Of a stretch of 20,563 nucleotides of DNA, positions 4,908 through 20,242 are shown one piece after another. Position 1 is the first letter of the stretch. Each line of letters opens with the position of its first letter. Below the pieces are notes generated by a model, which saw only the letters and a program-made list of their open reading frames with translations, did not search any database and had not been told where the DNA came from. Both the position numbers and the translations under genes were made by a program. Source of the DNA: Promethearchaeota archaeon (lineage in GTDB: Archaea; Asgardarchaeota; Lokiarchaeia; Sigyniarchaeales; SOKP01); the NCBI GenBank assembly GCA_016926735.1, contig JAFGOA010000024.1, forward strand, positions 1-20,563. Reading direction: 5' to 3'.

Positions 4908-5867
4908 TTATTCCCCTAACATTGCTTCTATAAGAATTTGTATTGCCTCTTCTTCTGTTAATCCTTTTGCTTTTAATTCATCAAGCCACTTTTGAGGAAA
5001 TCTACCAAGGCTTGCCTCATGACTCACACTCGCTTCTGGATCTGTAGCTCTAATAAAAGGTCTTGCTCTACATATAGAACCTCTTCCTAATACAATTTCA
5101 TTGCATTCTACATGTCCATTGCATTTAGGAGCATTTCCTTCAGTTACACCATACATTAATACTTCACCTCCATTCTGAGCTGCAGCCTTCATTTTTAATA
5201 CACTTCTAGCATTCTCCCCTTCAAGAAAAATTGAATCTCTAATTCTAACGGAATCATTTTTTGTTCTTCCAAAAGCCTTTACAGTAGAACGGATTGTAGA
5301 ATCCTTCATAGCATAAATATCTAATAATATCTTAACTTTACCTACAGTACCTCGTGTAAGAGTAAAATTATTCTCAAAGATGGAGTTCTCTCCAATATAT
5401 ATTTGGGCTACAGGAGCAACTATAGCACCACTCTTTTCACCATGATAATGAGTCTCAGTATAGTTAAATTTACAATTCTTTCCAATATAAAAATGACTAT
5501 ACATTTTATGTATTAAACCGGTAGCGTTGGGAAAGCTACAATGTGCCTGTATAGTAACTTCAGAGTTGTCTTCAGCTATAATTCTTGGAAAAATCTCTTG
5601 AACTCCTGTTTCTTTATTTACACCGAAACATAAATGAACAGGATCTTCTAATTTAACACCTTCTTTTATAATAATATCTGCAATTATACCATTTTGTATT
5701 TCTTTTCCTTTTAGAATTACACCTTCAATTTCTTCCATTCCTTTAATTTTATTAAAATCCAATAATAATTTGGCTCCTTTTCCATGTCCGGGAAGAAAAT
5801 CCTTAATATTAATATTGTATTCTTCAAGACTTTTCAAAATTTCTTTGGGATATTCAATATTGCTCAT
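4908..5867 (-). CDS. sufB: Fe-S cluster assembly scaffold SufB/SufD family (short SmsB type)
   Basis: PVHLCFG, AHCSFP, ETHYHG, GHVECNEIV and VSHEASLG...L.AKGLTEEEAIQILI are motifs typical of short archaeal SufBD; ATGA overlap with sufC. Confidence 0.92.
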   Translation of the reverse strand: MSNIEYPKEILKSLEEYNINIKDFLPGHGKGAKLLLDFNKIKGMEEIEGVILKGKEIQNGIIADIIIKEGVKLEDPVHLCFGVNKETGVQEIFPRIIAEDNSEVTIQAHCSFPNATGLIHKMYSHFYIGKNCKFNYTETHYHGEKSGAIVAPVAQIYIGENSIFENNFTLTRGTVGKVKILLDIYAMKDSTIRSTVKAFGRTKNDSVRIRDSIFLEGENARSVLKMKAAAQNGGEVLMYGVTEGNAPKCNGHVECNEIVLGRGSICRARPFIRATDPEASVSHEASLGRFPQKWLDELKAKGLTEEEAIQILIEAMLGE

Positions 5868-6664
5868 TTAGATTCCTCCTCTCGAAAAATTCTGTCTATA
5901 TAATCCGAATCGAAACAACCAGTCTTTTCACCTTGAAACACTGTCCTTTTACAATACTCTTTTAGTCCTGCTTTTGCACAATATCTTATCATAACTTCAG
6001 GAAAAGTTGATGTTATGATTTCATCTCCTCTCCAGAGGAGTGTAGCATAATCAGAAACCATTCCAATATCCTCCCTGTGGGTAATTAGGAGAATTGTCAT
6101 ATTAAGTTCCTTTATTCTATTGAAAATATTTAAGAAATCTTCAATAACAATAAGGTCCAATCCTGCTGTAGGTTCATCAAGAATTATAAGTCGAGGTTTC
6201 ATAGCTATAGTTGCTGCTAATTCGATTCTTTTCCTTTCTCCACCACTCAGAGTCTCATCAATATACCTGTTTAAATATCTCTCAGGTTCTAAATTAACAG
6301 TTTTTAAAGCTTTAATAACATTTTCTTTTTGATTCGATTTATCTTTAATACCCAGTGATACGTACTTAAATACAGTTAAACCATCAATTCTTGCAGGCTC
6401 TTGCCAAGCTAATGTTATTCCCAATTTTGCTCTTTCTGTTATATTCATATTTGTAATATCTTGTCCATCAAAAAGGATCTGACCTTTGCTAATTTTATAT
6501 GTTGGTAATCCCATAATTGAATAGGCTAGAGTTGATTTACCAGAACCATTAGGTCCAATAATACTATGAATAGATTTCTCTTTTACGCTAAAACTGATAT
6601 TGTTTACTATGTTACATTTTTGATCAAATGTAGGGATAGTAACTCCTTTTAATTCTAACAGCAT
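5864..6664 (-). CDS. sufC: Fe-S cluster assembly ABC-type ATPase SufC (SmsC type)
   Basis: Walker A GPNGSGKST, LAWQEPAR Q-loop, LSGGERKRIE signature, Walker B IILDEP, ITH H-loop; translationally coupled to sufB. Confidence 0.93.
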   Translation of the reverse strand: MLLELKGVTIPTFDQKCNIVNNISFSVKEKSIHSIIGPNGSGKSTLAYSIMGLPTYKISKGQILFDGQDITNMNITERAKLGITLAWQEPARIDGLTVFKYVSLGIKDKSNQKENVIKALKTVNLEPERYLNRYIDETLSGGERKRIELAATIAMKPRLIILDEPTAGLDLIVIEDFLNIFNRIKELNMTILLITHREDIGMVSDYATLLWRGDEIITSTFPEVMIRYCAKAGLKEYCKRTVFQGEKTGCFDSDYIDRIFREEESK

Positions 6665-6865
6665 TTATATACTAAAAATAGTTATATTAGGTTAAATTTA
6701 AAAATATATAGTAAATAATAACTTTTTTCAATATTATCGATTCTTAGTGCTAAAAATAAAGATATCAGGAAATATCAAAAAACACAGAATCAATTAATAT
6801 AAATACAAAAAGGATTAGGGTTCTTGTATTAGAACCACAATTAAAATTTATTTTGCTAAGTTATG

Positions 6866-6952
6866 TTAATCAACTTTAGCTTTGCAATTAGAACATATAT
6901 GATTATTATTTTTGATTACTTCTCCACAAATTTTACATATTTTTACTTTCAT
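6866..6952 (-). CDS. 28-aa zinc-ribbon micro-ORF (or 5' remnant of a decayed zinc-ribbon gene)
   Basis: Manual translation gives MKVKICKICGEVIKNNNHICSNCKAKVD* (CxxC-x10-CxxC). A purine-rich AGAGGA lies 12 nt upstream (6965-6970, minus strand). Not in the ORF track. Confidence 0.55.
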   Translation of the reverse strand: MKVKICKICGEVIKNNNHICSNCKAKVD

Positions 6953-7119
6953 TTTGATATTTTATCCTCTTTTATATTCTTATATTAATTTAAAATTTTG
7001 AATAATATTTAAAACCCTTTGGAAAATAATTGAAATTTTAGAAATTGGTATTTGGATCTTGGTATAAAAAATTATTCCTAAAATTCTTAACCTGTTATAA
7101 TAAAATAGAAAAAATTATC

Positions 7120-7713
7120 TTATTTAATTTTAGGGATCAAAGCACCCGTTGTTTTTTTATATTCTCTATATTCATCTCCAAATCGTTTAATTAAATCATT
7201 TTCTTCAATATATATCATAAGTGGAATATAGATAATCAAAAAAATAAAAATAATCTCTAATATAAACCAAGAATTCAATAACAATCCTATAGATAGATAT
7301 ACTGGAATTTCGCCAGTAGATTGTGGATGACGAATATGTTTATAGATCCCACCATGCATTTTCCCCTCTCGAAGGGGAGTATAGGTCTCAGCACCAGCAT
7401 CCTTTACACCATTTATCATAATAATTGCTCCAAAAATAATTATTATTATTCCAATTATTAATCCTATCCAAAATACAGCAAACATATTCCATTTATTTAC
7501 AATTGGTAAAGGAAACCAAATCCATAATATAAGATTTATTACTGTCAGAATCTGTAAATATTGTGCAATTTCCCTAAGAGTTTTACTTTGATCCCATACT
7601 TTTATTCCATTTTTTTTTTCTCTTTTTGCAGGTTGTAGACTAATAAAATATAATGATGTCAATGCAATTGTAGAAATTAAAAATATTAAGGAATTTATTA
7701 TCTCAAAAACCAT
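7120..7713 (-). CDS. isoprenylcysteine carboxyl methyltransferase / PEMT family membrane methyltransferase
   Basis: Multiple TM helices, GGIYKHIRHPQSTG motif and C-terminal EENDLIKRFGDEYREYKKTT.ALIP motif. Confidence 0.88.
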   Translation of the reverse strand: MVFEIINSLIFLISTIALTSLYFISLQPAKREKKNGIKVWDQSKTLREIAQYLQILTVINLILWIWFPLPIVNKWNMFAVFWIGLIIGIIIIIFGAIIMINGVKDAGAETYTPLREGKMHGGIYKHIRHPQSTGEIPVYLSIGLLLNSWFILEIIFIFLIIYIPLMIYIEENDLIKRFGDEYREYKKTTGALIPKIK

Positions 7714-7939
7714 TATCTTATCGCTCTTTAATGTTATTCACAATATATTTAATATTTTTTAATATCGAAAAACAAAAATTACTATTTAAATATCTTTGAA
7801 AAAAAATAATTATTTTTTAGAAAATCTGTATAATACAAATTTTTTAATATTAATTTAATTGATATCGGATGTTAATTATATTATAATACTTAAATAAACT
7901 AAGAAATGTATTGATTAATTATCTATAACTCTATATAAA

Positions 7940-8791
7940 ATGAATGAATCAGAACTGAATAATAATTTATTTGGCTTGTTTAAATCTGAAAAACGCATTA
8001 AAATTTTAGAAAATCTGATTAAAAGTGATAAAAAATTAAATTTTAATAAGATTTCAAAAGATTTAGAGATAAAACCTTCAAATTTAGAATATCATTTAAA
8101 ACAACTAGAGGATCAAGGGATAATAACACATGTTAATAATAAATATGGTATTAATGCATATTCAAAAATAATATGGAATAATTTACAAAATCTGAGACAT
8201 TTAGAACCAAGTTTATCTTTTTTAAAAACCCATCAACTTCCGATAGATGATTCTGATTTACTTATAGAATTATTAACTTTAGAGATAACATATATACCTG
8301 ATTCGATATCATTGCTTACATTTATGAATCACTTAAAAATAAAAGATTTGTCAAAAATGAATATCGTGGGATTGTATAATCTAGAATTGGAAGAAAAACT
8401 AATAAAATTAGTAAATTATGAAAATAAAGATATTCAAATAACCAATACAGAATTAATTATGGATATTGATAATTATATTACTCTTGTATCCTATGATAAC
8501 TTTGATTATTATTTTAAAATGATTGATAGTGGTACTTTAAATGTATATATTTGTGAAAAATGTAATTTTTTTATAGGAATTACTAAAGAATTCGGTATAT
8601 TATGTCTACCAGATTTAGCGAATTTAATGGATTATCAACAATGTCTTGTTTTTTTAAAACCTAAAGCATTATCCTGGTTGAATAAATGGTATAATCAAAT
8701 TAAACAGAAAGCAAAGAGGATTCCCTTCTCTAAAAAGGTTTTTAAGAATAAAGAGGATATATTAGAATATCTCAACTCTTTAAAGGATTGA
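7940..8791 (+). CDS. ArsR-like winged-helix transcriptional regulator with C-terminal effector-type domain
   Basis: LFKSEKRIKILENL...LNFNKISKDLEIKPSNLEYHLKQLEDQGII is an archaeal wHTH. FLKTH..P and the C-terminal ALSWLNKWY resemble archaeal HTH regulators with a C-terminal domain. Divergent from the methyltransferase gene. Confidence 0.8.
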   Translation: MNESELNNNLFGLFKSEKRIKILENLIKSDKKLNFNKISKDLEIKPSNLEYHLKQLEDQGIITHVNNKYGINAYSKIIWNNLQNLRHLEPSLSFLKTHQLPIDDSDLLIELLTLEITYIPDSISLLTFMNHLKIKDLSKMNIVGLYNLELEEKLIKLVNYENKDIQITNTELIMDIDNYITLVSYDNFDYYFKMIDSGTLNVYICEKCNFFIGITKEFGILCLPDLANLMDYQQCLVFLKPKALSWLNKWYNQIKQKAKRIPFSKKVFKNKEDILEYLNSLKD

Positions 8792-8796
8792 TTTTA

Positions 8797-9360
8797 TTAT
8801 TTTAATTGTATTTTTTTTATAATTTTGCAAGGATTTCCTGCTGCTAATACATTATCAGGAATTTCTTTTGTTACAACACTCCCCGCTCCAATTATTGAGT
8901 TTTTTCCAATAATAACTCCGGGTAATATTATACTACCTCCCCCGATCCATGCATTTTCTCTAATATTAATTGGTAATGAAATTTCTATTCCCGATAATCG
9001 TTCAATAGGATCAATTGGATGTGTTACGGAATAAATTTGTACTGCTGGTCCAATCATTACATGATTTCCAATATTTACTCTATTTGCATCTAAAACTACA
9101 CAATTAACATTAAAATATACATAATCATCCAAGTAAATATTATATCCATAATCACATTGAAAGGGGGGTTCAATCCAACAATTTTTACCAAAATTTCCAA
9201 GAAAATCCTTCATAAATTCTATTTTCTTTTCTTCTTCTTCAATAGGAATTGTATTAAATTTTTGGAGCATAATTTTTGCTCTCTTTCTCTCATCCATTAA
9301 TTCTGGATTTAAGGGATAATAATATTTTCCTGCTAACATTTTTGCTTTTTCTGTTTTCAT
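8797..9360 (-). CDS. maa: sugar (maltose) O-acetyltransferase, hexapeptide-repeat family
   Basis: MKTEKAKMLAGKYY Mac domain, IEPPFQCDYGYNI, hexapeptide repeats WIGGGSIILPGVIIGKNSIIGAGSVVTKEIP and AAGNPCKIIK. Confidence 0.93.
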   Translation of the reverse strand: MKTEKAKMLAGKYYYPLNPELMDERKRAKIMLQKFNTIPIEEEEKKIEFMKDFLGNFGKNCWIEPPFQCDYGYNIYLDDYVYFNVNCVVLDANRVNIGNHVMIGPAVQIYSVTHPIDPIERLSGIEISLPINIRENAWIGGGSIILPGVIIGKNSIIGAGSVVTKEIPDNVLAAGNPCKIIKKIQLK

Positions 9361-9665
9361 AATAAAATTCTTTTTGTTTTTAGTTTTTAAAAAAAGATCT
9401 GATAATATTCTTTTTTCGTTATAGTATTAATTCTAGAAAATATTTGTATATAATCCTTGTTTTAAGAATTATTTTATCTACATTGATAAAAACAGTAATC
9501 AATCCAATATTTTTTCTCTAAGTAATTCTATCTCTATTCATAAAAATTTATATTTCTCTCAAAGTTGGAAATTTATTAACCAAAAATAAGATAGATTTAA
9601 AAATAGAAATTCTCATTATTGGTGTATTGATAGTTTCAATGAACATCAAAAAAAAATGATCTAAT

Positions 9666-12097
9666 ATGAGATTTTTAAGAATAAAAAAAAAGAAATTTCA
9701 GCCTTATTAGTAATTATTCCAATGTTATAAACAATAGATATTTTAATTCCAAATATACAAGCTGGATCATATGTTCCAGAAGGGCACCCTAACAATCAAT
9801 GGCATTGAGATGTAGATATAGGTGATCAATTATATCTTGAAGGAGAATTCATAGTTACCAATGACACAACAGGGGAAATTGAAATGATGTTTAGAGATAT
9901 TTGGATATACGATATTACATCAATTGAAAATGTTACATTGAATTGGTTAGGAACAAATATATTTTCTCAATTAAACGCGACTCAATGTTATTATAATACC
10001 ACTTTAGGTTTATTAGAAGTCTATGAGAATTCAAGAGAATTGGGTCTTTTTGGATATCATAACACGGATACAATACAACATAAATTACGAGCAGGTGAAA
10101 ATGGTGTTCCATTTATCCTTCCGATTAATGGAACAAAGGGACTTGAGGTCGATGTTATGGCAGATATTATTAATAGTTCATGTTATAGTCCAGAAGGAAA
10201 CCCAGGGATCAATTTATTTGATAGTTACTCCTCTGATACACTCTTAAATCGTATTTATTTTTCAAATTCAAGTGATGGTTATTTCTCAGATATATATTAT
10301 TATGAAAATGGAACACTTGATCATGCTTCTGTTGAATTAAGAATTTAAATGAGTGAAGGTCCTATGCTTATCGAAGCAACTATGAGACAAGTTAGTGATT
10401 ATAATATTACTGATGAGATTGAATGGGGTGTTTCTGTAGGTGAATCGTATACATATGATTATGCAGACGACGGTGAGGGTTTTGAAGAGGGATATGAATT
10501 ACGATTTGATATTGTTAAAATTAATGAAACACTATTTGAAAAATATAATAATGGATTTTCCAATGAATATCCAATATATATGACACATCAAACAGTATAT
10601 GCAGATTTATTTGTATGGAATGGTTCACATTTTCTATTAGATGACTCTAATATGATGATTGGTGCTGCAAATAATTTTTATCCTTAATTTTTTGATACTT
10701 CTGAACCCTCGCAGTTTAATATAATATATCCAAATAGTATGCAAGCAGAAGATCTTGCTTTTATGTGGAATAATAATACCCTTAAAATATATGGAACTCC
10801 ATTTGATGAGATCATAATTACTGAGAATGGAAATATTGAGAGTACTCTCAGAAACACAACAGGAAACTCGATTGCAAACAATATTGTTGAAAAATCATCA
10901 GGTATCGTCCAATCATTACTAATATCAGATGATAATGATTTTCAATACTATGTACTTAAGAAATTATCCTCGGCAGATATAACTTGGTCGGTTTCTCCAG
11001 GATATACAATATATTACAAAAATAACTTATTTGAAAAAACTAAAGCAGAAGTTAACGATATGAGAGCAATTGTTATTGGAACATATGTGTGCTTATTGAA
11101 CATGACAGCAATTATTCAAGAATATAATTCGATAGGCATACCAATAACATTAGCGCCTGATCAATTAGAATATCAATTCTTTAGTCATGTATATGCCGAT
11201 ATTCAATATTGGAATCATATCAGTGGAATTTGGGAACACATGAATAATGATTTTCTTGCAATAGCAAATGAATATTGGCCTATTTCACCTATTTCATTTC
11301 AAGAAATTAATGGTCCACCTCTTATTATGCCAACAGGAACTGAAAGTGCAGATTTACAGAATGTGTTTGATTTATTCGGTAGTATTTATGATTATATAGA
11401 CTATAGTCTAACAGAAAGTCATGTTATATTACGGAGTTCAACTATTAATGTAGAACTTAATTTTTATTTTGACCAAACAACAGGGAGAACTACAATGATG
11501 TATGGTTGGGCAAATACACCAGGACCTGATTGTGAATGGATGTATATTTCTTCTTATCCAAAATTCAATCAAGCATTATTAGTAGGGACAAATTCATTTA
11601 CATTTAGCAGTCATTTTCCATCAGATGCAACTATTACCATAGAATTTACTGTAGTAGTAACTGCAGCTCCTGGAATGTTTCTCCATAACAGTTTTAAAAT
11701 GAATCCTGTAAATACAACAATAATAAATGGCACAATTTTAATATATGTTGATATGCTTTTTACTAATCCCTCTGTTATTAATTCCAATATAACTATGACA
11801 ATACAACTTCCACCTAGTTTAGATTTAGATGATTTAGCAATCCTTTTTTGTGGATATAATATGAGTGGAAATCTTGAATGGGACTTAGCACCTATTGAAT
11901 TTTATTTTGATAATGTAACAAATTCGATAATAATTGAGATGGAACCTTGGAGAGGAGGGATGATTGGTGCTATAGCGTATATTGTAGCACCAGGGGCCGG
12001 AGGAATTCCTGGATATGATCTCTTAACAATTGTATTGACAATTATAATCATGTCAGGTTTAGCAGCGAGAAAAATAAAAATGAGAAACAAAAAATAA
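9666..12097 (+). pseudogene. large secreted/surface glycoprotein with three internal repeats and IPGY C-terminal sorting signal (Loki-CTERM-like), disrupted
   Basis: ORFs 9884..10348, 10349..10687 and 10739..12097 are all in one frame. That frame extends upstream to a signal-peptide-like KKKEISALLVIIPML*TIDILIPNIQA. In-frame stops: TAA 9728-9730, TGA 9806-9808, TAA 10346-10348, TAA 10685-10687. The ATG at 9666 needs a 1-nt frameshift in the T5/A9 tract. The C-terminus reads GGIPGYDLLTIVLTIIIMSGLAARKIKMRNKK, and there are many N-x-S/T sequons. Confidence 0.85.
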
Positions 12098-12147: not shown

Positions 12148-14586
12148 TCATTCTGATTCATTGGAATTATTTGATTTATCTAAAACCATCTTTTCCTCAT
12201 TATTTTCGGTTTTAATTTTAGTTTTTGGAATTCCAGAAAGAAGAATTTTCTGCTTTTTGATCTTTCTAACTTCAGCAAATATTTCTGCTAATTTTTCTAA
12301 AGTAAATATTTTTTCTTTATTAGATATACTCTTTTCATATTTATCTTTTAAGAATCTAAATCTTTTTCGCCATTCTGATTTTTTATCAATATTTTTATAA
12401 AGATTTTTAAAACATTTTTTTGAATCGTGGTTTTGGAAAGAAATCAGAAAATTAACCCAGAAAAATGTTCTTAATTCTTGACATTCATTTGGTCTAAATT
12501 CTTGAAGCAGATTATAAAGTTGTTTATCATATACTGGTATAAATCTAATGGTCTTATTTTTATCATCCTCAGGATTATCCATTAATTTTAACTCCATATC
12601 AGCTTTAGCTATATTTTCCAACAATATATATAGAAATCCTAAAGGAATTTTAGTTTTTATTCTTATTTTTTCACCAATTTCAGATATAGGAATATAAAAA
12701 TCTTGATATCTTGAAATATCTTGTATACGCGTTATATATTCTTTTTTAATAATATCGAGAACAGTTTTCTTCATTTCATCGTTAATTTCTTTAGCTTTAA
12801 ATGGAAAATCTTTTAATTTTTGTAATTTTTCTCGCCTTTCAATCTTATGTTGTTGTCTTTTATCAAATCTATTTGTGAGCGATGCAATAAATTGATCTGA
12901 TGCTTTATCTGATTTAAGGTCCTTTCCAAGCTTTCCCATCTCACTTTTTGTTTTTGAAGTAGTTTTAACTAATTCTTCTGATAGATATTTTTTTACTTTT
13001 TTTTCAGCAATATCTCGCTTTTCAAATTGCTCTGTTACGGAAATAAATTTTATCCATTGTACTTTATTTCCAAAATTATCATTAACCTCAGAAAGAAACA
13101 TATTTACATCTTTTTCTGCTAATCTCTTTATTAGAGAATAAATTACGGCTTTAGACAATTTTGTAGCTTTAATTAATTCCCTATCCATAATTTCAATTGG
13201 AAAAGCATCTCCTCTCCGGATATATTCACCCCTCAGAAGTTTATATACTATTTGCATACTTTCTTCTTCCTTATTGATAGTTTCTTTTTGTATTCTCATA
13301 AACATAGACGTTTGATGAGGTTTTATGTAATAAACAAGTAAAGTGATTCCCAAAAAAATAGTCATAAAAATTGAAATTATGTATTTATCTGATAAAAAGA
13401 CCTCCCCTAAAATAGTAATTTGTTGATTAGGTATATTATTTGCTAATGTAAATCTTGCTAAAGTTTGAGCTAAAACACATCCTAAAAAGAATAAAACTAA
13501 TCCATCTCTTTTAAAAAATAAGAATTGCCATCCATATGATTTTCCTAATTTAACTATAACACGATAAAGAAATAACATTGAAATAAAGAACTCAAATATA
13601 AAAACCGAAGTTAATGCTCCACTATTTGTCCCTAATGAAGATCTAATAGCTTCTAACGTTTCAGGTTGTAATAATAAATAAACACTAATTTGAAAAATCT
13701 GAAAAAAGAAAATAAAAAGAACAACTAATGAAAAAGTAAAATTGTCGAAGGTTCCAACTCTTTTTGTCTCAGCTCTTCTTCGCGTTGATATAAATTCAAC
13801 TATCAAAAAAATAATTACCATCACTAAATTAAAATAAATCATAGGCATTATCCACTTCATTTCTAAAGTATACATTCCAACAGCTGCATGAGGATTAGTA
13901 GGACCAAAAATATCTAAAGAAATATATACCAATAAAGTACGATATAACAAAGCAATAAATACTAGAATGATTGCTATTATAGTTGGTATAATCATTATAA
14001 TTAAATATCTTGATTTAGAATATTTTTCAAGAAAAGCATATTCTATTTTAGTCGCAAATTTTCTGGAGTAAATATAAAATCTACTACTTAGAAGAACAAT
14101 CCAAACAAAAGATAAAAATAAAAAATAACTAATCAGATTTATGTTGGTAGAAATAAAATTGAATAGTAAATAAAGACCAGCAAATATTAATCCAAAAATT
14201 AATATTTGTTTGGCGAAAGTAAAGCTTTCAAAAATATAGTTTCTTAATTTGTCATAGTTAAGTATTATTGATAGTATTAAAAAAAATACCAAAAGAGCTG
14301 TTCCAAAACTAAAAGGATTTCCAAATGCAAGATATTTTATAAAGATATTATTTGGATCGTTAATACCCCATAACAATATGAAAGAGTAGAATCCAAATAA
14401 GAAATATAAAATGAAAAATTTTTTACTAAAAGCATAGGATTTTGGAGACTCTTCACCTTTTAAATACACTTTTTTGTTGAAAATTTTATTTTTAATATTT
14501 GTAAATGTTATTCTGAGTTTATTACTTATTCCTTTTGCTTTGTTTTTTAATCCTTTTGAGGAATAATTCTTAAATTTCTTTCTCAT
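12148..14586 (-). CDS. uncharacterised polytopic membrane protein (about 10 TM) with cytoplasmic C-terminal region containing two winged-helix-like repeats
   Basis: About ten hydrophobic segments in aa 57-421, then a charged soluble region with an internal repeat (aa ~444-517 and ~605-685). Confidence 0.8.
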   Translation of the reverse strand: MRKKFKNYSSKGLKNKAKGISNKLRITFTNIKNKIFNKKVYLKGEESPKSYAFSKKFFILYFLFGFYSFILLWGINDPNNIFIKYLAFGNPFSFGTALLVFFLILSIILNYDKLRNYIFESFTFAKQILIFGLIFAGLYLLFNFISTNINLISYFLFLSFVWIVLLSSRFYIYSRKFATKIEYAFLEKYSKSRYLIIMIIPTIIAIILVFIALLYRTLLVYISLDIFGPTNPHAAVGMYTLEMKWIMPMIYFNLVMVIIFLIVEFISTRRRAETKRVGTFDNFTFSLVVLFIFFFQIFQISVYLLLQPETLEAIRSSLGTNSGALTSVFIFEFFISMLFLYRVIVKLGKSYGWQFLFFKRDGLVLFFLGCVLAQTLARFTLANNIPNQQITILGEVFLSDKYIISIFMTIFLGITLLVYYIKPHQTSMFMRIQKETINKEEESMQIVYKLLRGEYIRRGDAFPIEIMDRELIKATKLSKAVIYSLIKRLAEKDVNMFLSEVNDNFGNKVQWIKFISVTEQFEKRDIAEKKVKKYLSEELVKTTSKTKSEMGKLGKDLKSDKASDQFIASLTNRFDKRQQHKIERREKLQKLKDFPFKAKEINDEMKKTVLDIIKKEYITRIQDISRYQDFYIPISEIGEKIRIKTKIPLGFLYILLENIAKADMELKLMDNPEDDKNKTIRFIPVYDKQLYNLLQEFRPNECQELRTFFWVNFLISFQNHDSKKCFKNLYKNIDKKSEWRKRFRFLKDKYEKSISNKEKIFTLEKLAEIFAEVRKIKKQKILLSGIPKTKIKTENNEEKMVLDKSNNSNESE

Positions 14587-14809: not shown

Positions 14810-15091
14810 ATGGAGAAAGAAAAGGATAAGTCAGAGATTAAGCTTGCTAAACTTATAAAAAAAGCTATTGAAATACTATGTGAAAAAAATTTCTCTGAAG
14901 TAGTTATATTATCATCTTATAAAATTTCTTCTATTTTAAATGATAATTTTGGAATTAATATTAAAGTAGATAAAATTGGTAGAATTCTAAGTAATTTAGC
15001 CAAACGAAATCAACTTAAAAGATTGAATACGAATATTCCAAAATATAGACTTCATATCTCTCATTTAACAAATCTTAAATTTCCCTTATAA
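14810..15091 (+). CDS. small basic winged-helix-like protein (93 aa)
   Basis: LIKKAIEIL...LSSYKISSILNDNFGINIKVDKIGRILSNLAKRNQLKRLNTNIPKYRL has the helix-helix-helix-wing pattern of wHTH domains; divergent from the 812-aa gene. Confidence 0.65.
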   Translation: MEKEKDKSEIKLAKLIKKAIEILCEKNFSEVVILSSYKISSILNDNFGINIKVDKIGRILSNLAKRNQLKRLNTNIPKYRLHISHLTNLKFPL

Positions 15092-15177: not shown

Positions 15178-16521
15178 TTATATTTTTTTTAAAGAATCAA
15201 TATTACTATCCAAATCTTTAACTTTTCTACTAATATCTGTAATAATTTTTTCAAAATTATCAATTTTTGATTTAACCAGATTTAATTCATTGATCTTTTT
15301 TGAATTATTTTCATCTATATCTTTTTTTAAAGTATCAGCAAAATTATTTATTTCGTTTTCGAATTTATTTTTTATATTCGTTATTTTTTCATTACTTTTA
15401 TCGATATCTACTTTACTATCATTTTGCATTGTCTTTAATTCATTTATTTTTCCTTCTAGTGATTGGATCTTAATTTTTAATAATTCTGAACTGTTTTTAA
15501 ACTGCTCAGAAACAATTTTAAGTGTTTTTTCTTCTATTTTATTTTTAATATCACTAATTTTTGATTCAAAATTTTTTTGTTCGGCTATATTTTTATTAAT
15601 AAGATCTTTTGCCGTTTCTTTTACGCGTTCTGTTAATCCGAGAATTTCACTCTTACTCCAGTTTTTTAAATTATTCATTCCTGAAGAGAGACCTTCATTA
15701 ATTTCATATAATAAATTTAATAATTTTGTACTTGCTTCTATAGTAATTTGATTTAAATTTACCATTATCTTTTTAATATCTTCATAAATTAACTCATTAG
15801 TATTATTTATTAAAGTAGTATAAGAAGACTGTAGCTTTTCTAAAGGAAGTGATTCAATCTCCATAAAATCATCAATAGGTGCAGTAGGTATTTCTTGGAG
15901 ATCTTTAGGGATTGTTTCTGAAACTTCTTTAACTTCACTTATTAAAATAGGATTATTTTTATAAAAATCCTCAACAAATTTCTGAATCCATTTAAAATAA
16001 TCCATTGTTTTTGGTTCTTCTATCTCAAAATCTATAGAATCATATTTGCCTTGTTCTCCCTTTTTATAATCTATGAATGAATATATTTTTAATCCAAAAT
16101 TATTCTCTTTTTTGAGAAGTTTATGATCAAAAACAATAGAGAAAGCTTTTGGCTTTTTATTAGTTTGAATATATAAATGATTTTTTCTATCTTGTTCATT
16201 CCATTCAATTCCTCCAGAAGGATGAGAAATATACCATCCGATAACTTTTAGATCTTGGTCTTTATAATTGTCTTCAATTTTTTTTAATAAATCTAAGTAG
16301 CTTTGAGAGATCCCAATTTGAATATCCTTTCCATGAGATATTGGAATCGCATTCATTAACATCATGTTATTATTCTCATCTTGTTTTCCAAGACAGAATC
16401 CAATAACCTCATATTTTGTATCTAATGAATCATCTGCAAATCTAAGTACGTGAGTAATCATATTCCTAAATGCTTCTTTGGTAATAAAAATAGGTCCTTC
16501 TTTGTTTTTTATATCATTCAT
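15178..16521 (-). CDS. MPN/JAB domain protein with degenerate JAMM motif (MPN-minus pseudo-isopeptidase) and long C-terminal coiled coil
   Basis: YEVIGFCLG...NAIPISHG...VIGWYISHPSGGIEWNEQD: the first Zn-ligand His is Ile and the oxyanion Ser is Asn. The C-terminal ~200 aa are heptad-rich K/E/N/I/L. Confidence 0.88.
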   Translation of the reverse strand: MNDIKNKEGPIFITKEAFRNMITHVLRFADDSLDTKYEVIGFCLGKQDENNNMMLMNAIPISHGKDIQIGISQSYLDLLKKIEDNYKDQDLKVIGWYISHPSGGIEWNEQDRKNHLYIQTNKKPKAFSIVFDHKLLKKENNFGLKIYSFIDYKKGEQGKYDSIDFEIEEPKTMDYFKWIQKFVEDFYKNNPILISEVKEVSETIPKDLQEIPTAPIDDFMEIESLPLEKLQSSYTTLINNTNELIYEDIKKIMVNLNQITIEASTKLLNLLYEINEGLSSGMNNLKNWSKSEILGLTERVKETAKDLINKNIAEQKNFESKISDIKNKIEEKTLKIVSEQFKNSSELLKIKIQSLEGKINELKTMQNDSKVDIDKSNEKITNIKNKFENEINNFADTLKKDIDENNSKKINELNLVKSKIDNFEKIITDISRKVKDLDSNIDSLKKI

Positions 16522-16529
16522 GCTCTATT

Positions 16530-17966
16530 TTACCCCCTTTTTTCCTCAATTTGATTTTTCAGTTTACTATTTTCTTCATTTAATGCTTTTATTTTGTTTT
16601 TTAAAATATTAGCTGAATTTTGATAGTTTGAGTTTAGATTATTTATTTCTAAAGTAATTGTCTGTAATTTCTTTTCAAATTGATCTAAAGATTCTTTGTT
16701 TTTTTCATTAATTTTATCAAATTCATCTGCTTGATTTCTATAATAATGATTAATATCTATTAAGAGCTTGCTTTGTATTTCGTTGATCAAAATATCTAAA
16801 TTTTTTAACATTTCATTTTGTTTATTTAAATCATCTTTTATTTTCTTATTTTCAGTAATAATATGTTCTATATTTTCAATTTTAGGATTAATCATAGAAT
16901 CTATTTCAATTTTTGATTTTGAAATAAAATCTTCAAAAGTATCTTTAATTTTATTAGTTATCATGTCCACTAATTGATTAGCAGAATCAACAATTTTTTG
17001 AAAATCCTTACTAATAACATCAAATCGATCATCGATATACATATCAAGATTGGTTAAATTATATTGTAAAGTAAAAAGAATTGTATTTTGTAACTGCTCT
17101 ATCTCTGTTATAAGGATATTTTTCAACTCTTTTAATGTATTTTTCATTAATAAATTGTTATTAATCATTCTTTCTCCCAAATTATGACTCCAATTGTTAA
17201 ACAATGAAAATATTGGATTCAAAATTGAACTAAATATTCCAGATATTCTATTTTGGATTGTATCAATTATTTTATTTTGATCAAGTTGAGGTATATCATA
17301 TTTAAATTGACTATCTGTAGGAATGTTTATATCATCAAAAATATTAAATTTTTCATTTAATTCCAATATAGGAGGTTCTCCACTATGGAATTTTTTAATT
17401 AGATCGATGATATTATCATAAAAATCAAGAGAATCTGGAATCTCAACAATTGTATTTACTTCATGATACCCTGATAGATCCCCTTTATTTGGATCATCTA
17501 GTCTGAATGTTCTAAATCCTAAATCACCTGGAGATTCTAAATATTCATGATCAAAAACAAGGCCAATTGCACTAGGATTTTGTGCTTGCCACCCTAATTG
17601 ATTTCGAATATCTGTACCAGAAAAAAAGATACTGAGCCCTGGATGACTATGATACCATCCAAGTGTAAACATATTCCTTTCAGCAGCTTCAAGATTAATA
17701 GGTTCAAATTTACCATAGTCTGATGCAGAAAAATCTACTTCTATCGATCCTCCATGAGATACTGGAACAGCATCTTCAATAATAACGTCTTTTATTTTCC
17801 CATTACCCTCGAGATGACCTATTATCATTCCCATAACTTCTTTAAATTTGTGGCGTGCTCTTGTTTTTGAACCATATCTTAAAATGTGTACTAACATTTT
17901 ATAATAGGCAATAGGCTTTATTTTTACAATTGAATCATCTTTATAATTAGAAAATCTTTCTCTCAA
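16530..17966 (-). CDS. MPN+/JAMM metalloprotease (Rpn11/CSN5-like) with long C-terminal coiled coil
   Basis: VKIKPIAYYKMLVH...KEVMGMIIG and LGWYHSHPGLSIFFSGTD give a complete E...HSH-x7-S-x2-D motif. TTG start preceded by AAGTGA; helical/coiled-coil C-terminal half. Confidence 0.92.
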   Translation of the reverse strand: MRERFSNYKDDSIVKIKPIAYYKMLVHILRYGSKTRARHKFKEVMGMIIGHLEGNGKIKDVIIEDAVPVSHGGSIEVDFSASDYGKFEPINLEAAERNMFTLGWYHSHPGLSIFFSGTDIRNQLGWQAQNPSAIGLVFDHEYLESPGDLGFRTFRLDDPNKGDLSGYHEVNTIVEIPDSLDFYDNIIDLIKKFHSGEPPILELNEKFNIFDDINIPTDSQFKYDIPQLDQNKIIDTIQNRISGIFSSILNPIFSLFNNWSHNLGERMINNNLLMKNTLKELKNILITEIEQLQNTILFTLQYNLTNLDMYIDDRFDVISKDFQKIVDSANQLVDMITNKIKDTFEDFISKSKIEIDSMINPKIENIEHIITENKKIKDDLNKQNEMLKNLDILINEIQSKLLIDINHYYRNQADEFDKINEKNKESLDQFEKKLQTITLEINNLNSNYQNSANILKNKIKALNEENSKLKNQIEEKRG

Positions 17967-18208: not shown

Positions 18209-18874
18209 TTATGAGTGTGGTATAGGTTTTCCACAATGAGGACAGAATTTCCATTCCAGATCTTTTCCACAATGAGGACAATATTGTATTTCTACGGTTC
18301 CTTTTGAAACGCTAGGAGATTCAATCGAACTTGATTGTAAAACAGATGTACTTTCACCGGCACTAGGAATCGTTGGTAGATTTCTTCTACTATGAGTTGT
18401 TGAGCTTACGCTTGACGATTGGCTAAATCTCTCTTGAAATGCTTTCCGTTTGCTTTCTTCGTTCATAACACTAGGGGCTTCATTTTCAACCCATCCACTT
18501 ACTTTAGGACGCTTTAATTCAGCTTCAGGAACTTTCTCAAGCCCAATATCTTTACTCTCCGAAACAGGAGCCATTACTCGTTGTTTATCTTTGTTCTGTA
18601 TCGCTTGTTTTACCAAAACTTGAGTTGTTTTCATAACTTGGTGTGGGTTGATATTTGGGATTGCTACAGTTCTTAAAACCCAACCAACGACAAGATTCTG
18701 ATTAGGAAATCCCCCAACTGAATCCTCATCTTTATAGATATAAGAATCAATTATATCTTTTCCTTTTAATATTCGGCTTGCCCATTTTTCATTTATAAGA
18801 CCTAATTGAAGACGATATGACGTACCAGGTATTCCTAATTGGCTTGTTAAGGGCGCAAATCCTTTTTCTGTCAA
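18209..18874 (-). CDS. uncharacterised protein: N-terminal globular domain, Ser/Thr-rich linker, C-terminal zinc ribbon (CPHCGK x2)
   Basis: TTG start 6 nt after AGGTGA; C-terminal YCPHCGKDLEWKFCPHCGKPIPHS; visibly more GC-rich than its neighbours. Confidence 0.85.
   Translation of the reverse strand: MTEKGFAPLTSQLGIPGTSYRLQLGLINEKWASRILKGKDIIDSYIYKDEDSVGGFPNQNLVVGWVLRTVAIPNINPHQVMKTTQVLVKQAIQNKDKQRVMAPVSESKDIGLEKVPEAELKRPKVSGWVENEAPSVMNEESKRKAFQERFSQSSSVSSTTHSRRNLPTIPSAGESTSVLQSSSIESPSVSKGTVEIQYCPHCGKDLEWKFCPHCGKPIPHS
18227..18280. repeat. 18-bp exact direct repeat, period 36 (TTTTCCACAATGAGGACA x2)
   Basis: Identical copies at 18227-18244 and 18263-18280 encode the two CPHCGK knuckles. 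Confidence 0.9.
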
Positions 18875-19291: not shown

Positions 19292-20242
19292 ATGACAGTA
19301 ATAATACCTAAAAAGGTCTATCAGACTATTGTTGCATGTTGTACTCGATTTGCAAACAAGAAAATATTTGAAGATGATTGGTTAGAAGTATATGGTGTTT
19401 TAATAGGAAAAAATGAGGGAAAAAATGTTCTTATATCGCAAGCATATCCAATCTGCCATCAAGAGAAAAATCCTGAGGATGTAATTGATAAAGTATATTG
19501 GAATGATGAAGATTATGAAAGCTTTAGTATTATTGATGATGAAGCATTTAATCGTGGAGAATTTACTGTAGGATGGTATCATAGTCATCCTGGTTTTAAG
19601 GTTATGATGTCTCAATTGGATGTAAAAACAACACTTTCCTACCAACAATTTAATCCTCAAGCAGTATCTTTAGTTTTCAATCCATCTCGTTTGGTAAGGC
19701 AAATAGAACTTCCTGATAAAAAAGGAAATCCTGTTATTCAACTAAAAAATGATCCTGGATTTAAAATTTATCGTCTTGATGATGTAAATAGAGGAATCGA
19801 AGCATCTTATCACGAAGTTGATTATGAAATTCAAGGATATGATAATATGGAACAATGTGTAAAATTAAATCAAAAATTTATTATAGATATCACAAATCTA
19901 TTGCCTCGTAATAATATAAATGAGTTTTATGATAAATTTGTGAATGAAAAAATAAATGATCTAAATTCCCGACTAGTAGGAACAGAAGAATATTTAAAAA
20001 CATTAGTTCGAAAAGGAGAAAAACAAAGAACTCAGGAGGTACTTGAAGAACAAATAAAAGAGATACGAAAATTCGCTGCTACAACTTATATGAATATTGA
20101 AATGATGAAAGAATTCTTAGATTATCTGGAATATAAAGAGAGAGAGATAATTATCCCAAAAGTAAAACAGATTCTATCAAAATGGGATGAAATGGCGACT
20201 AATTTAGAAAAAAAATTCCAAGAATTAGAAAATAAATTTTAA
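19292..20242 (+). CDS. MPN+/JAMM metalloprotease (Rpn11/CSN5-like) with helical C-terminal extension
   Basis: WLEVYGVLIG and TVGWYHSHPGFKVMMSQLDVKTTLSYQQFNPQAVSLVFNP closely follow the Rpn11 pattern VGWYHSHPGFGCWLS..D..TQ.SFEQLN.RAVAVV.DP; the JAMM motif is intact. Confidence 0.92.
   Translation: MTVIIPKKVYQTIVACCTRFANKKIFEDDWLEVYGVLIGKNEGKNVLISQAYPICHQEKNPEDVIDKVYWNDEDYESFSIIDDEAFNRGEFTVGWYHSHPGFKVMMSQLDVKTTLSYQQFNPQAVSLVFNPSRLVRQIELPDKKGNPVIQLKNDPGFKIYRLDDVNRGIEASYHEVDYEIQGYDNMEQCVKLNQKFIIDITNLLPRNNINEFYDKFVNEKINDLNSRLVGTEEYLKTLVRKGEKQRTQEVLEEQIKEIRKFAATTYMNIEMMKEFLDYLEYKEREIIIPKVKQILSKWDEMATNLEKKFQELENKF

What the first reader, a model, noticed from the sequence alone, without database searches (positions are those of the whole stretch)
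15178..17966. Tandem active/inactive MPN (JAMM+ / JAMM-) pair with coiled-coil tails: candidate prokaryotic counterpart of Rpn11-Rpn8 / CSN5-CSN6 / BRCC36-Abraxas heterodimers
Seen: two same-strand genes only 8 bp apart. They are paralogs beyond the catalytic core (MLVHILRYG/MITHVLRFA, DAVPVSHG/NAIPISHG, GLVFDH/SIVFDH, VEIPDSLDFY/IEEPKTMDYF). The upstream gene keeps E...HSH-x7-S-x2-D. The downstream gene has I-S-H-x7-N-x2-D, so it should not bind catalytic zinc normally, yet it is full length and intact in a window where other genes are decaying. Both carry 200+ aa of heptad-rich helix. Established: the eukaryotic proteasome lid, COP9 signalosome and BRISC/BRCA1-A complexes are each built on an MPN+/MPN- heterodimer joined by C-terminal helices, whereas characterised archaeal JAMMs are small stand-alone enzymes. 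Inference: these two proteins form an enzyme/pseudoenzyme heterodimer acting on ubiquitin-like conjugates, either ancestral to or convergent with the eukaryotic arrangement.
Basis: partly seen in the sequence, partly recalled or inferred. Interest (0 to 1): 0.88.

Follow-up and report, generated by a model that had tools for sequence, protein, structure and literature searches.

The report
Archaeal active/inactive MPN protease pair
Two neighbouring genes of a Lokiarchaeial (Asgard) archaeon encode sister MPN proteins on long helical stalks, one a complete metalloprotease and one with a damaged zinc site, and they probably pair into an enzyme/pseudoenzyme dimer that arose independently of the similar pairs at the core of eukaryotic ubiquitin machines.

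Summary
Window 16530-17966(-) (P1, 478 aa) and 15178-16521(-) (P2, 447 aa) lie 8 bp apart. Both are eukaryote-type MPN/JAB proteins. Each is modelled as an MPN head, a linker and one unbroken helix of about 220-230 residues. P1 keeps E...HSH-x7-S-x2-D. P2 reads ISH-x7-N-x2-D.

The pair is not a strain oddity. Adjacent same-strand pairs occur in 25 of 30 related loci, across one Lokiarchaeial family and parts of its order. P1 orthologues keep all five catalytic residues in 66 of 66 sequences, P2 orthologues in 4 of 48. At least five changes of catalytic state are needed on the tree. P2 is still under purifying selection (dN/dS about 0.25), and its best-conserved residues fall on the predicted dimer interface.

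A complex prediction supports P1-P2 binding (0.63, best control 0.00). The interface is a parallel alpha1/alpha4 bundle plus an in-register coiled coil.

P2 is P1's own sister paralogue, not an Rpn8, CSN6 or Abraxas orthologue, and the pair is lineage-restricted. It is therefore parallel evolution, not the eukaryotic ancestor. Heterodimer versus homodimer, activity and substrate remain untested.

The parts
16530..17966 (-). P1: 478-aa MPN+ (JAMM-complete) protein with a long helical stalk; upstream gene of the pair
   Evidence: ORF and translation. PF01398 E 5.1e-12. E, H, H, S and D invariant in 66 of 66 orthologues. AF2 mean pLDDT 78.8. Foldseek hits to Rpn11, CSN5 and BRCC36 chains.
17382..17930 (-). 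P1 MPN domain (aa 13-195)
   Evidence: AF2 secondary structure; Pfam match to residues 14-130.
17610..17651 (-). P1 JAMM motif H106-S-H108-x7-S116-x2-D119; the catalytic Glu43 lies at 17838-17840
   Evidence: Translation; invariant columns.
16539..17237 (-). P1 stalk: a single predicted helix, aa 244-476, with a hydrophobic heptad pattern interrupted by register shifts
   Evidence: Residues 260-373 are in the confident predicted interface.
16522..16529 (-). 8-bp spacer between the P1 stop codon and the P2 start codon
   Evidence: In 18 of 19 loci the two genes are at most about 20 nt apart or overlap, using first-start-codon coordinates. The exception is L034, where about 6 kb is inserted.
15178..16521 (-). 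P2: 447-aa MPN protein with a degenerate zinc site and a long helical stalk; downstream gene of the pair
   Evidence: PF01398 E 3.4e-9. AF2 mean pLDDT 77.5. Foldseek to Rpn11 chain 4ocm_B, E 1.3e-9, TM-score on the target 0.67. dN/dS 0.245.
15964..16491 (-). P2 MPN domain (aa 11-186)
16189..16230 (-). P2 degenerate motif I98-S-H100-x7-N108-x2-D111 (first His replaced by Ile, Ser replaced by Asn)
   Evidence: Column make-up in 48 orthologues: the first-His position holds I 17, H 9, S 9, L 7, Y 2, C 2, R 1 and 1 gap.
15184..15834 (-). P2 stalk: a single predicted helix, aa 230-446
   Evidence: Residues 252-366 are in the confident predicted interface.
18209..18874 (-). Conserved upstream neighbour on the same strand (243 bp from P1): 221-aa protein with a C-terminal zinc ribbon and an unassigned N-terminal domain
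   Evidence: Pfam Zn_ribbon_3 E 3.1e-6, a hair below its cut-off (26.9 vs 27 bits), with two other zinc-ribbon models also below theirs. Cluster c2 is present in 15 of 19 loci. The Atlas lead is a Promethearchaeota-only zinc-ribbon cluster, score 0.88. No match among solved structures.
19292..20242 (+). P3: third MPN+ gene (316 aa, HSHPGFKVMMSQLD, shorter helical tail), transcribed divergently
   Evidence: PF01398 E 4.9e-17. Forms a separate clade, SH-aLRT 99. In 12 of 19 loci an AAA+/VWA gene (c4) lies nearby and directly follows P3 in most of them; an ATP-grasp gene (c5, 9 of 19) usually comes next.
14810..15091 (+). Conserved 93-aa convergent neighbour (cluster c1)
   Evidence: Present in 15 of 19 loci. 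Only a weak DUF5797 match, E 0.0014, below the cut-off.
12148..14586 (-). Conserved 812-aa downstream neighbour on the same strand (cluster c3); the N-terminal half looks multi-pass hydrophobic by eye
   Evidence: Present in 14 of 19 loci; no Pfam family.

Best explanation
P1 and P2 are a two-gene operon that arose by tandem duplication of an Rpn11-like MPN+ gene within Lokiarchaeia (Promethearchaeota). Each protein is an MPN head on a helix of about 220-230 residues.

I propose that they assemble into a parallel heterodimer. Helices alpha1 and alpha4 of the two MPN domains form a pseudo-symmetric four-helix bundle, and the stalks continue as an in-register parallel coiled coil over at least about 115 residues. 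P1 is the zinc isopeptidase that removes ubiquitin or a ubiquitin-like modifier. P2 can no longer hold the catalytic zinc in this genus, because the first His is Ile and the Ser is Asn. P2 would then act as the structural and regulatory partner.

Shown: paralogy, synteny, strict conservation of the P1 active site, recurrent decay of the P2 active site, and purifying selection on P2.

Predicted only: the dimer and its geometry.

Inferred: the isopeptidase activity, the substrate and the role of the stalk.
For: Both are MPN proteins and paralogues. P1 and P2 together form one clade apart from the genome's four other MPN genes (SH-aLRT 95). A single origin of the P2 group is not rejected (p-AU 0.53).

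An adjacent same-strand pair, always with the P1 type upstream, occurs in 25 of 30 loci and in 18 of 19 wider loci.

P1 keeps E, H, H, S and D in 66 of 66 sequences. P2 keeps them in 4 of 48. At least 5 changes of catalytic state are needed on the tree.

P2 is maintained. Its ORF is intact across genera, and dN/dS is 0.245 over 379 codons, against 0.208 for P1.

P2 positions conserved at 90% or more are enriched in the predicted MPN-MPN interface: 14 of 33 against 29 of 153, odds ratio 3.15, p 0.006. Its catalytic columns are only 35-90% conserved.

Complex prediction: ipSAE 0.63 (runs 0.64, 0.60, 0.63) against a best control of 0.00. That mark was reached by 58 of 80 solved complexes and 2 of 110 mismatched pairs. 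The runs agree in at least 69% of contacts, and the partner's pLDDT is at least 69.

Heptad register shifts fall at matching places in both stalks.

The genome encodes possible substrates and conjugation enzymes: ubiquitin-like genes, E1 and E2.

A parallel H1/H4 homodimer is described for the Caldiarchaeum Rpn11 homologue (passages of PMC6043591). That protein is also P1's best sequence match among solved structures (6fjv, E 1.2e-14).
Against: The tool itself warns that close cousins of a true partner also pass and that a pass may come from memory of solved MPN dimers.

The P1 interface residues are not more conserved than the rest of its MPN domain: 12 of 35 against 83 of 154, odds ratio 0.45.

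Stalk lengths do not co-vary. P2 is nearly constant while P1 varies from 352 to 473 residues after the motif (Spearman rho 0.008, p 0.98, n = 19).

Confident contacts end at P1 residue 373 and P2 residue 366, so the distal 80-100 residues of each stalk are unassigned.

Some genera keep all five catalytic residues in P2, so 'pseudoenzyme' does not describe the whole family.

The pair is not in a ubiquitin operon. The genome's ubiquitin/E1/E2 cluster on contig C237 has its own 264-aa MPN+ gene.

The dN/dS values rest on only 19 (P2) and 27 (P1) substitutions. The tree is a quick search without bootstraps.
Confidence: 0.55

Rival explanations
1. P1 and P2 do not pair with each other. Each forms its own parallel homodimeric coiled coil. 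P1-P1 is an active protease. P2-P2 is a non-catalytic binder of ubiquitin-like proteins or a competitor that regulates the same pathway.
For: The alpha1/alpha4 interface is inherited from a common ancestor. A homodimer of this kind is described for the Caldiarchaeum Rpn11 homologue (passages of PMC6043591). Stalk lengths of P1 and P2 are uncorrelated. The prediction tool states that close cousins of a true partner also pass.
Against: The genes sit within 0-20 nt of each other in 18 of 19 loci, which suits co-translation of stoichiometric partners. P2's strongest conservation lies on the interface predicted against P1. That would also hold for a P2 homodimer, so this point is weak.
Confidence: 0.2
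2. The pair is an MPN-headed coiled-coil scaffold whose main role is not deubiquitination. It could be a JAMM peptidase acting on another substrate (a SAMP/Urm1-type modifier or a precursor peptide), or a long tether attached to the membrane or another assembly through the stalk.
For: The pair is not in a ubiquitin operon. The conserved neighbours are an unassigned zinc-ribbon protein and an 812-aa protein of no known family that looks membrane-embedded by eye. The stalk profiles also match amphipathic apolipoprotein repeats (E 5.8e-8 and 4e-9). Those matches may be compositional.
Against: The P1 MPN domain matches ubiquitin-specific Rpn11, CSN5 and BRCC36 best. It matches the eukaryote-type JAB model better than the Prok-JAB model (46.1 against 31.3 bits). 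The NCBIfam desampylase model scores far below its cut-off (14.7 against 130 bits). There is no transmembrane segment in P1 or P2.
Confidence: 0.15
3. P2 is still catalytically active in this genus through a rebuilt metal site. One candidate replacement ligand is the invariant His63 of the P-I-S-H-G motif.
For: E38, H100 and D111 are retained. His63 is invariant in 48 of 48 P2 sequences, and the equivalent His71 is invariant in 66 of 66 P1 sequences.
Against: The first His is replaced by non-ligand residues (I, L, S, Y, C, R) in 38 of 48 sequences, and the Asp is lost in 26 of 48. That pattern points to relaxed constraint on the site, not a new fixed geometry.
Confidence: 0.06
4. P2 is a decaying pseudogene, or the His-to-Ile change is an assembly error.
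For: One other frame in the window carries in-frame stops.
Against: P2 is intact at full length in nearly every genome with the pair. ISH is shared by four genomes in two genera. dN/dS is 0.245.
Confidence: 0.02

Closest known systems
BRCC36-Abraxas / BRCC36-ABRO1(KIAA0157) heterodimer (BRCA1-A and BRISC cores)
   Same: An MPN+ enzyme is paired with an MPN- paralogue-like partner. Both carry helices C-terminal to the MPN domain that pair as a coiled coil (architecture recalled from established knowledge). BRCC36 chains are among the sequence and fold matches.
   Different: There is no orthology, since P2 is a recent sister of P1. The stalks here are about 220-230 residues, far longer. No partners of the BRCC45 or MERIT40 type were identified. 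P2 is still catalytically complete in some genera.
Rpn11-Rpn8 (proteasome lid) and CSN5-CSN6 heterodimers
   Same: Active/inactive MPN pairing. Rpn11 and CSN5 are the best eukaryotic sequence and fold matches for both proteins. Helices alpha1 and alpha4 are used in the predicted interface.
   Different: PMC6043591 (passages) describes the Rpn8-Rpn11 dimer as antiparallel, while the arrangement predicted here is parallel. No PCI-domain gene lies nearby. PCI-like winged-helix hits exist only on other contigs, and that model also rings in 4 of the 14 control genomes. Rpn8 or CSN6 appears in neither sequence-profile hit list; a few MPN- chains (9e77_F, 9efm_F, eIF3 3j8b_H, 5a5t_F) do appear among the fold matches. 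The pair is confined to one Lokiarchaeial family and a few neighbours.
CsRpn11, the Rpn11 homologue of Caldiarchaeum subterraneum (PDB 6fjv, 6fju)
   Same: It is the best sequence match to the P1 profile among solved structures (E 1.2e-14). Its crystal shows a parallel dimer through H1 and H4 (passages of PMC6043591). The predicted P1-P2 MPN contact uses the same elements.
   Different: The 6fju/6fjv chains are 228 and 155 residues, with no long stalk. It forms a homodimer, with no inactive partner, and it is encoded next to a ubiquitin/E1/E2/E3 operon. In this genome that role fits the 264-aa MPN+ gene on contig C237, not P1/P2.

Membership tests
JAMM/MPN+ metalloprotease (Pfam PF01398 JAB with E...HxH-x7-S-x2-D) | MPN fold / match to the family model above its cut-off | tested here: met
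   P1 scores 46.1 bits and P2 37.0 bits against a cut-off of 22.5. Foldseek matches both models to Rpn11, CSN5 and BRCC36 chains at E 1e-9 to 1e-6.
JAMM/MPN+ metalloprotease (Pfam PF01398 JAB with E...HxH-x7-S-x2-D) | Complete catalytic motif in P1 (Glu, two His, Ser, Asp) | tested here: met
   E43, H106, H108, S116 and D119, invariant in 66 of 66 orthologues.
JAMM/MPN+ metalloprotease (Pfam PF01398 JAB with E...HxH-x7-S-x2-D) | Complete catalytic motif in P2 | tested here: not met
   I98 replaces the first His and N108 replaces the Ser. Only 4 of 48 orthologues keep all five residues.
JAMM/MPN+ metalloprotease (Pfam PF01398 JAB with E...HxH-x7-S-x2-D) | Zinc-dependent isopeptidase activity | not testable with these tools
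   Needs metal analysis and cleavage assays.
Eukaryotic MPN+/MPN- heterodimers (Rpn11-Rpn8, CSN5-CSN6, BRCC36-Abraxas) | One catalytically complete and one incomplete MPN subunit | tested here: met
   Met in this genome and its near relatives. Not met in 6 of 19 pairs, where the downstream copy keeps all five residues.
Eukaryotic MPN+/MPN- heterodimers (Rpn11-Rpn8, CSN5-CSN6, BRCC36-Abraxas) | Physical heterodimer through the MPN domains and C-terminal helices | tested here: inconclusive
   The prediction passes (0.63 against a best control of 0.00). Homodimers were not tested, and a pass may reflect likeness to solved MPN dimers.
Eukaryotic MPN+/MPN- heterodimers (Rpn11-Rpn8, CSN5-CSN6, BRCC36-Abraxas) | Orthology of the inactive subunit to Rpn8, CSN6, eIF3f or Abraxas | tested here: not met
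   P2 groups with P1 (SH-aLRT 95). The P2 profile's sequence matches to solved MPN chains are all MPN+ (CSN5, Rpn11, BRCC36); a few MPN- chains appear among the fold matches. No named eukaryotic sequences could be placed in the tree.
Eukaryotic MPN+/MPN- heterodimers (Rpn11-Rpn8, CSN5-CSN6, BRCC36-Abraxas) | Embedding in a PCI-type or BRCC45/MERIT40-type larger complex | not tested
   None of the neighbours scanned gave a PCI-domain hit. PCI-like hits lie elsewhere in the genome. A VWA-containing AAA+ gene follows P3 in relatives, but no link to the pair was tested.
Archaeal ubiquitin-operon Rpn11-like JAMM (Caldiarchaeum/Asgard type) | Encoded beside ubiquitin, E1 and E2 genes | tested here: not met
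   Ubiquitin-like, E1 and E2 hits lie on contigs C237, C100 and C108, not on the window's contig C148. The C237 cluster has its own 264-aa MPN+ gene.

The most novel reading that the evidence does not exclude
Lokiarchaeia independently built an obligate MPN+/MPN- heterodimeric deubiquitinase mounted on a parallel coiled-coil stalk tens of nanometres long. The family preserves every stage of the change from enzyme to pseudoenzyme: MPN+/MPN+ pairs in some genera and at least five separate inactivations of the downstream copy in others. If so, the active/inactive MPN dimer is a recurrent solution that arises whenever an Rpn11-like dimer duplicates. That would give a living model of how the lid, CSN and BRISC cores originated.
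Probability: 0.4. Interest if true: 0.75.

Novelty: new variant of a known kind. Interest (0 to 1): 0.62.

Why it matters
Active/inactive MPN dimers form the catalytic core of the proteasome lid, the COP9 signalosome and BRISC/BRCA1-A. [quoted passage not shown] My five full-text searches found no later description.

This pair would be an archaeal example, in the Asgard lineage, that arose separately from the eukaryotic pairs. Different genera hold different stages of active-site loss. The family therefore offers a natural series for testing why a dead MPN partner is kept: dimer stability, regulation of the active site, or substrate positioning.

The very long stalk has no counterpart among the characterised JAMM enzymes that I know of. 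It points to an unexplored spatial role for ubiquitin-like signalling in Asgard cells.

Tried and rejected
Pseudogene or sequencing error for P2 is rejected.

'Ancestral to the eukaryotic pairs' is rejected on distribution and tree.

Stalk-length co-variation was tried as a test of heterodimerisation. It gave no correlation (rho 0.008, n = 19).

Interface conservation supports P2 but not P1.

Apolipoprotein, ZorA, SNARE and chemoreceptor matches to the stalks were read as periodic or compositional likeness of long amphipathic helices. They were not taken as homology.

Expression: no RNA holder was listed. The two metatranscriptome runs from the same study as the best DNA holder laid nothing on the stretch. 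This says nothing either way.

DNA contigs from two other runs cover parts of both genes, most of them at 95-99% likeness. I did not use them as evidence.

The upstream zinc-ribbon protein gave no match to solved structures. The Atlas gave only a lineage-restricted cluster, score 0.88. Its role stays open.

Literature: five full-text searches found no paper describing a tandem MPN+/MPN- pair in Asgard archaea. I read passages only of PMC10936438, bioRxiv 10.1101/2023.07.25.550441 and PMC6043591. For all other papers I saw only the search listings.

Supplementary Fig. 3 of PMC6043591 (dimer geometry) and the Asgard orthologue catalogues, which I recall but did not see, may already list these families.

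A tree with named eukaryotic MPN families could not be built, because no named eukaryotic sequences could be obtained.


Full report
THE OBSERVATION

The window is about 25% G+C. It carries two minus-strand ORFs 8 bp apart: 16530-17966 (P1, 478 aa) and 15178-16521 (P2, 447 aa).

P1 has E43 and H106-S-H108-x7-S116-x2-D119. P2 has E38 but I98-S-H100-x7-N108-x2-D111.

Both pass the eukaryote-type Pfam model PF01398 JAB (E 5.1e-12 and 3.4e-9, cut-off 22.5 bits). They align with each other over 448 columns at 24% identity (E 7e-27).

AlphaFold2 models built on alignments of 66 and 48 orthologues have mean pLDDT 78.8 and 77.5. Each shows an MPN domain (P1 13-195, P2 11-186), a linker that is low-confidence in P2 (residues 190-233 below pLDDT 50), and one uninterrupted helix (P1 244-476, P2 230-446).

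The helices carry a hydrophobic heptad pattern with register shifts. The shifts fall at corresponding places in the two proteins.

Foldseek matches both models to Rpn11, CSN5 and BRCC36 chains.

ORGANISM AND GENOMIC SETTING

The closest homologues are labelled by their sources as Candidatus Lokiarchaeota or Promethearchaeota archaeon.

The genome is 3.88 Mb in 238 contigs, with completeness 99.3%. It has six PF01398 genes.

Three of them lie in this window.

The other three are MPN+ proteins of 525, 264 and 394 aa.

The 264-aa gene sits in a cluster with E2, E1 and a ubiquitin-like gene on contig C237. A further ubiquitin hit and a ThiF hit lie on C100.

Possible substrates therefore exist, but P1/P2 is not part of a ubiquitin operon.

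CONSERVATION OF THE PAIR

A search of 40 relatives with P2 found full-length P2-type genes (E below 1e-30) in 22 of 24 other genomes of the same family. The two exceptions have hits at contig ends.

In 25 of the 30 loci returned, a P1-type gene lies directly upstream of a P2-type gene on the same strand. The five exceptions are:
- two loci cut by contig ends (L003, L029);
- one (L009) in which the P1-type gene lies outside the stretch fetched, about 6 kb away;
- two single-gene loci from another family (L028, L030).

In 19 wider loci the two genes are at most about 20 nt apart, or overlap, in 18. In the exception (L034) about 6 kb separates them.

The neighbourhood is also conserved within the family:
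- a 221-aa zinc-ribbon protein upstream, in 15 of 19 loci;
- a 93-aa convergent gene, in 15 of 19;
- an 812-aa protein of no known family, in 14 of 19;
- divergently, P3 (full-length in 11 of 19 loci), usually followed by an AAA+/VWA protein (12 of 19), an ATP-grasp protein (9 of 19) and a Roadblock/LC7 protein (7 of 19).

This wider synteny may be no more than shared ancestry within one family. Outside the family only the P1-P2 adjacency persists (L041, L042, L048).

In a sample of 251 genomes of the phylum, P1 matched at E 1e-12 or better in all 54 sampled genomes of the window's family. Full-length-scale matches outside it were seen in G030 (7e-66) and G256 (7e-42). Every other genome gave MPN-domain-level hits or none.

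THE TWO COPIES EVOLVE DIFFERENTLY

P1 orthologues keep E, H, H, S and D in 66 of 66 sequences. P2 orthologues keep them in 4 of 48. The first-His column in P2 holds I 17, H 9, S 9, L 7, Y 2, C 2, R 1 and 1 gap.

Across the 19 pairs, 18 of 19 upstream genes read EHHSD. The nineteenth has its Glu column masked. Of the downstream genes, 6 of 19 keep E, H, H, S/T and D, and 13 do not.

The His-to-Ile change of the window is shared by G002, G001 and G005, which span two genera. It is therefore neither an error nor a strain oddity.

On a quick maximum-likelihood tree of 52 MPN domains:
- P1-type and P2-type genes together form one clade (SH-aLRT 95), apart from P3 and the other paralogues;
- 17 P2-type genes group together (SH-aLRT 94);
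- the two out-of-family downstream genes with complete motifs sit at the base of the P1 group;
- holding all 19 downstream genes together is not rejected (p-AU 0.53);
- the catalytic state changes at least 5 times, or 3 times when only the zinc ligands are counted.

P2 is nevertheless maintained. Between G000 and G003, dN/dS is 0.245 for P2 (379 codons, 9 synonymous and 10 non-synonymous changes). For P1 it is 0.208 (478 codons, 14 and 13). These counts are small.

What P2 conserves is not the active site, whose columns are 35-90% conserved. It conserves helix alpha1, helix alpha4 and a linker motif.

DOES THE PAIR BIND?

I ran one full-length complex prediction with both alignments. It scored ipSAE 0.63 (runs 0.64, 0.60, 0.63) against 0.00 for the best of three controls.

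That mark was reached by 58 of 80 solved complexes and 2 of 110 mismatched pairs. The runs agree in at least 69% of contacts, and the partner's pLDDT is at least 69.

The confident interface has three parts:
- alpha1 of each MPN domain (P1 18-36, P2 18-33);
- alpha4 of each MPN domain (P1 174-199, P2 167-193);
- the stalks, P1 260-373 against P2 252-366.

The offset between the chains is a steady 7-8 residues in both alpha4 and the stalk. The arrangement is therefore parallel and in register.

Positions of P2 conserved at 90% or more are enriched in the MPN part of this interface: 14 of 33 against 29 of 153, odds ratio 3.15, p 0.006. For P1 the reverse holds (12 of 35 against 83 of 154), because its whole domain is conserved.

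Caveats:
- the pass may reflect the model's memory of solved MPN dimers;
- paralogues of a true partner also pass, by the tool's own statement;
- no homodimer job was possible;
- stalk lengths do not co-vary;
- the distal 80-100 residues of each stalk have no confident contacts.

COMPARISON WITH KNOWN SYSTEMS

Among solved structures, the P1 profile matches best the Caldiarchaeum Rpn11 homologue (6fjv, E 1.2e-14). Next come yeast Rpn11 (9.3e-12), BRCC36 (6.8e-10), CSN5 (9e-10) and AMSH-like proteases (about 1e-7).

The P2 profile matches CSN5 (1.1e-9) and Rpn11. No Rpn8, CSN6 or Abraxas chain appears in either profile hit list; a few MPN- chains (CSN6 and eIF3 subunits, by recalled chain assignment) do appear among the Foldseek matches.

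[quoted passage not shown] They also state that the Caldiarchaeum enzyme crystallises as a parallel homodimer through H1 and H4. The contact predicted here uses the same elements.

The simplest history is this. An Rpn11-like protein that already dimerised through alpha1 and alpha4, and had a coiled-coil tail, duplicated in tandem in a Lokiarchaeial ancestor. The homodimer became a heterodimer. After that the downstream copy lost catalytic residues repeatedly.

This mirrors the origin usually proposed for the eukaryotic MPN+/MPN- pairs, but it is a separate event. In architecture the nearest known system is BRCC36-Abraxas/ABRO1, which has MPN heads plus pairing C-terminal helices (recalled knowledge). 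The stalk here is several times longer.

VERDICT

The pseudoenzyme-partner reading is well supported by evolutionary evidence and by one controlled prediction. It lacks any test against homodimers and any biochemistry.

The claim of ancestry to the eukaryotic complexes is not supported. Parallel evolution is.

I rate it a new variant of a known kind. It is of real interest for pseudoenzyme evolution and for Asgard ubiquitin biology.

Noticed in passing
window 9884-12097 (+): This is one reading frame interrupted by two in-frame TAA stops (10346-10348 and 10685-10687). The product is rich in N-x-S/T sequons and ends in a hydrophobic segment followed by basic residues, like a surface protein. 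It is probably a pseudogene, or three separate ORFs. The Pfam scan of the 10739-12097 part gave no family; the two upstream parts were not scanned.
   Followed up: partly
window 19292-20242 (+), and L031:2986-7585: A third MPN+ gene (316 aa) is transcribed divergently from the pair. In most of the 12 relatives that carry the AAA+ (Mg-chelatase/MoxR-like)-VWA gene, that gene directly follows P3. An ATP-grasp gene is present in 9 of 19 loci and a Roadblock/LC7 gene in 7 of 19. The window's contig ends before these genes. MPN with VWA recalls Rpn11/Rpn10 and BRCC36/MERIT40, but I tested no link.
   Followed up: partly
L042 (G039:C41) 5446-9667: Four MPN-like ORFs lie in tandem on one strand (203, 246, 471 and 452 aa). 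The last two are the P1/P2-type pair, and both have complete JAMM motifs.
   Followed up: no
window 852-2018 and 2086-3240 (-): Two adjacent, highly similar TrkA-N domain membrane proteins (388 and 384 aa) look like a recent tandem duplication.
   Followed up: no
G000:C237:5594-8592: A compact ubiquitin-type cluster holds an MPN+ gene (264 aa), an E2, an E1 and a ubiquitin-like gene. It resembles the operon type described for Caldiarchaeum and Asgard archaea.
   Followed up: partly
P1 residues 197-216 and P2 residues 191-212 (window about 17319-17378 and 15886-15951, minus strand): Nearly invariant short motifs lie in the otherwise low-confidence linker between the MPN domain and the stalk (P1 E-P-P-I-L-E-x-N-E...F-G...P; P2 P-x-L-I-K-E...L-Q-x-I-P). 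They look like conserved docking motifs for an unknown partner.
   Followed up: no
P1 His71 and P2 His63 (P-I/V-S-H-G motif): This His is invariant in 66 of 66 P1 and 48 of 48 P2 sequences. It lies between the catalytic Glu and the HxH motif, roughly where Ins-1 sits in Rpn11 and CSN5 (position recalled, not measured). It could be a regulatory or alternative metal ligand.
   Followed up: no
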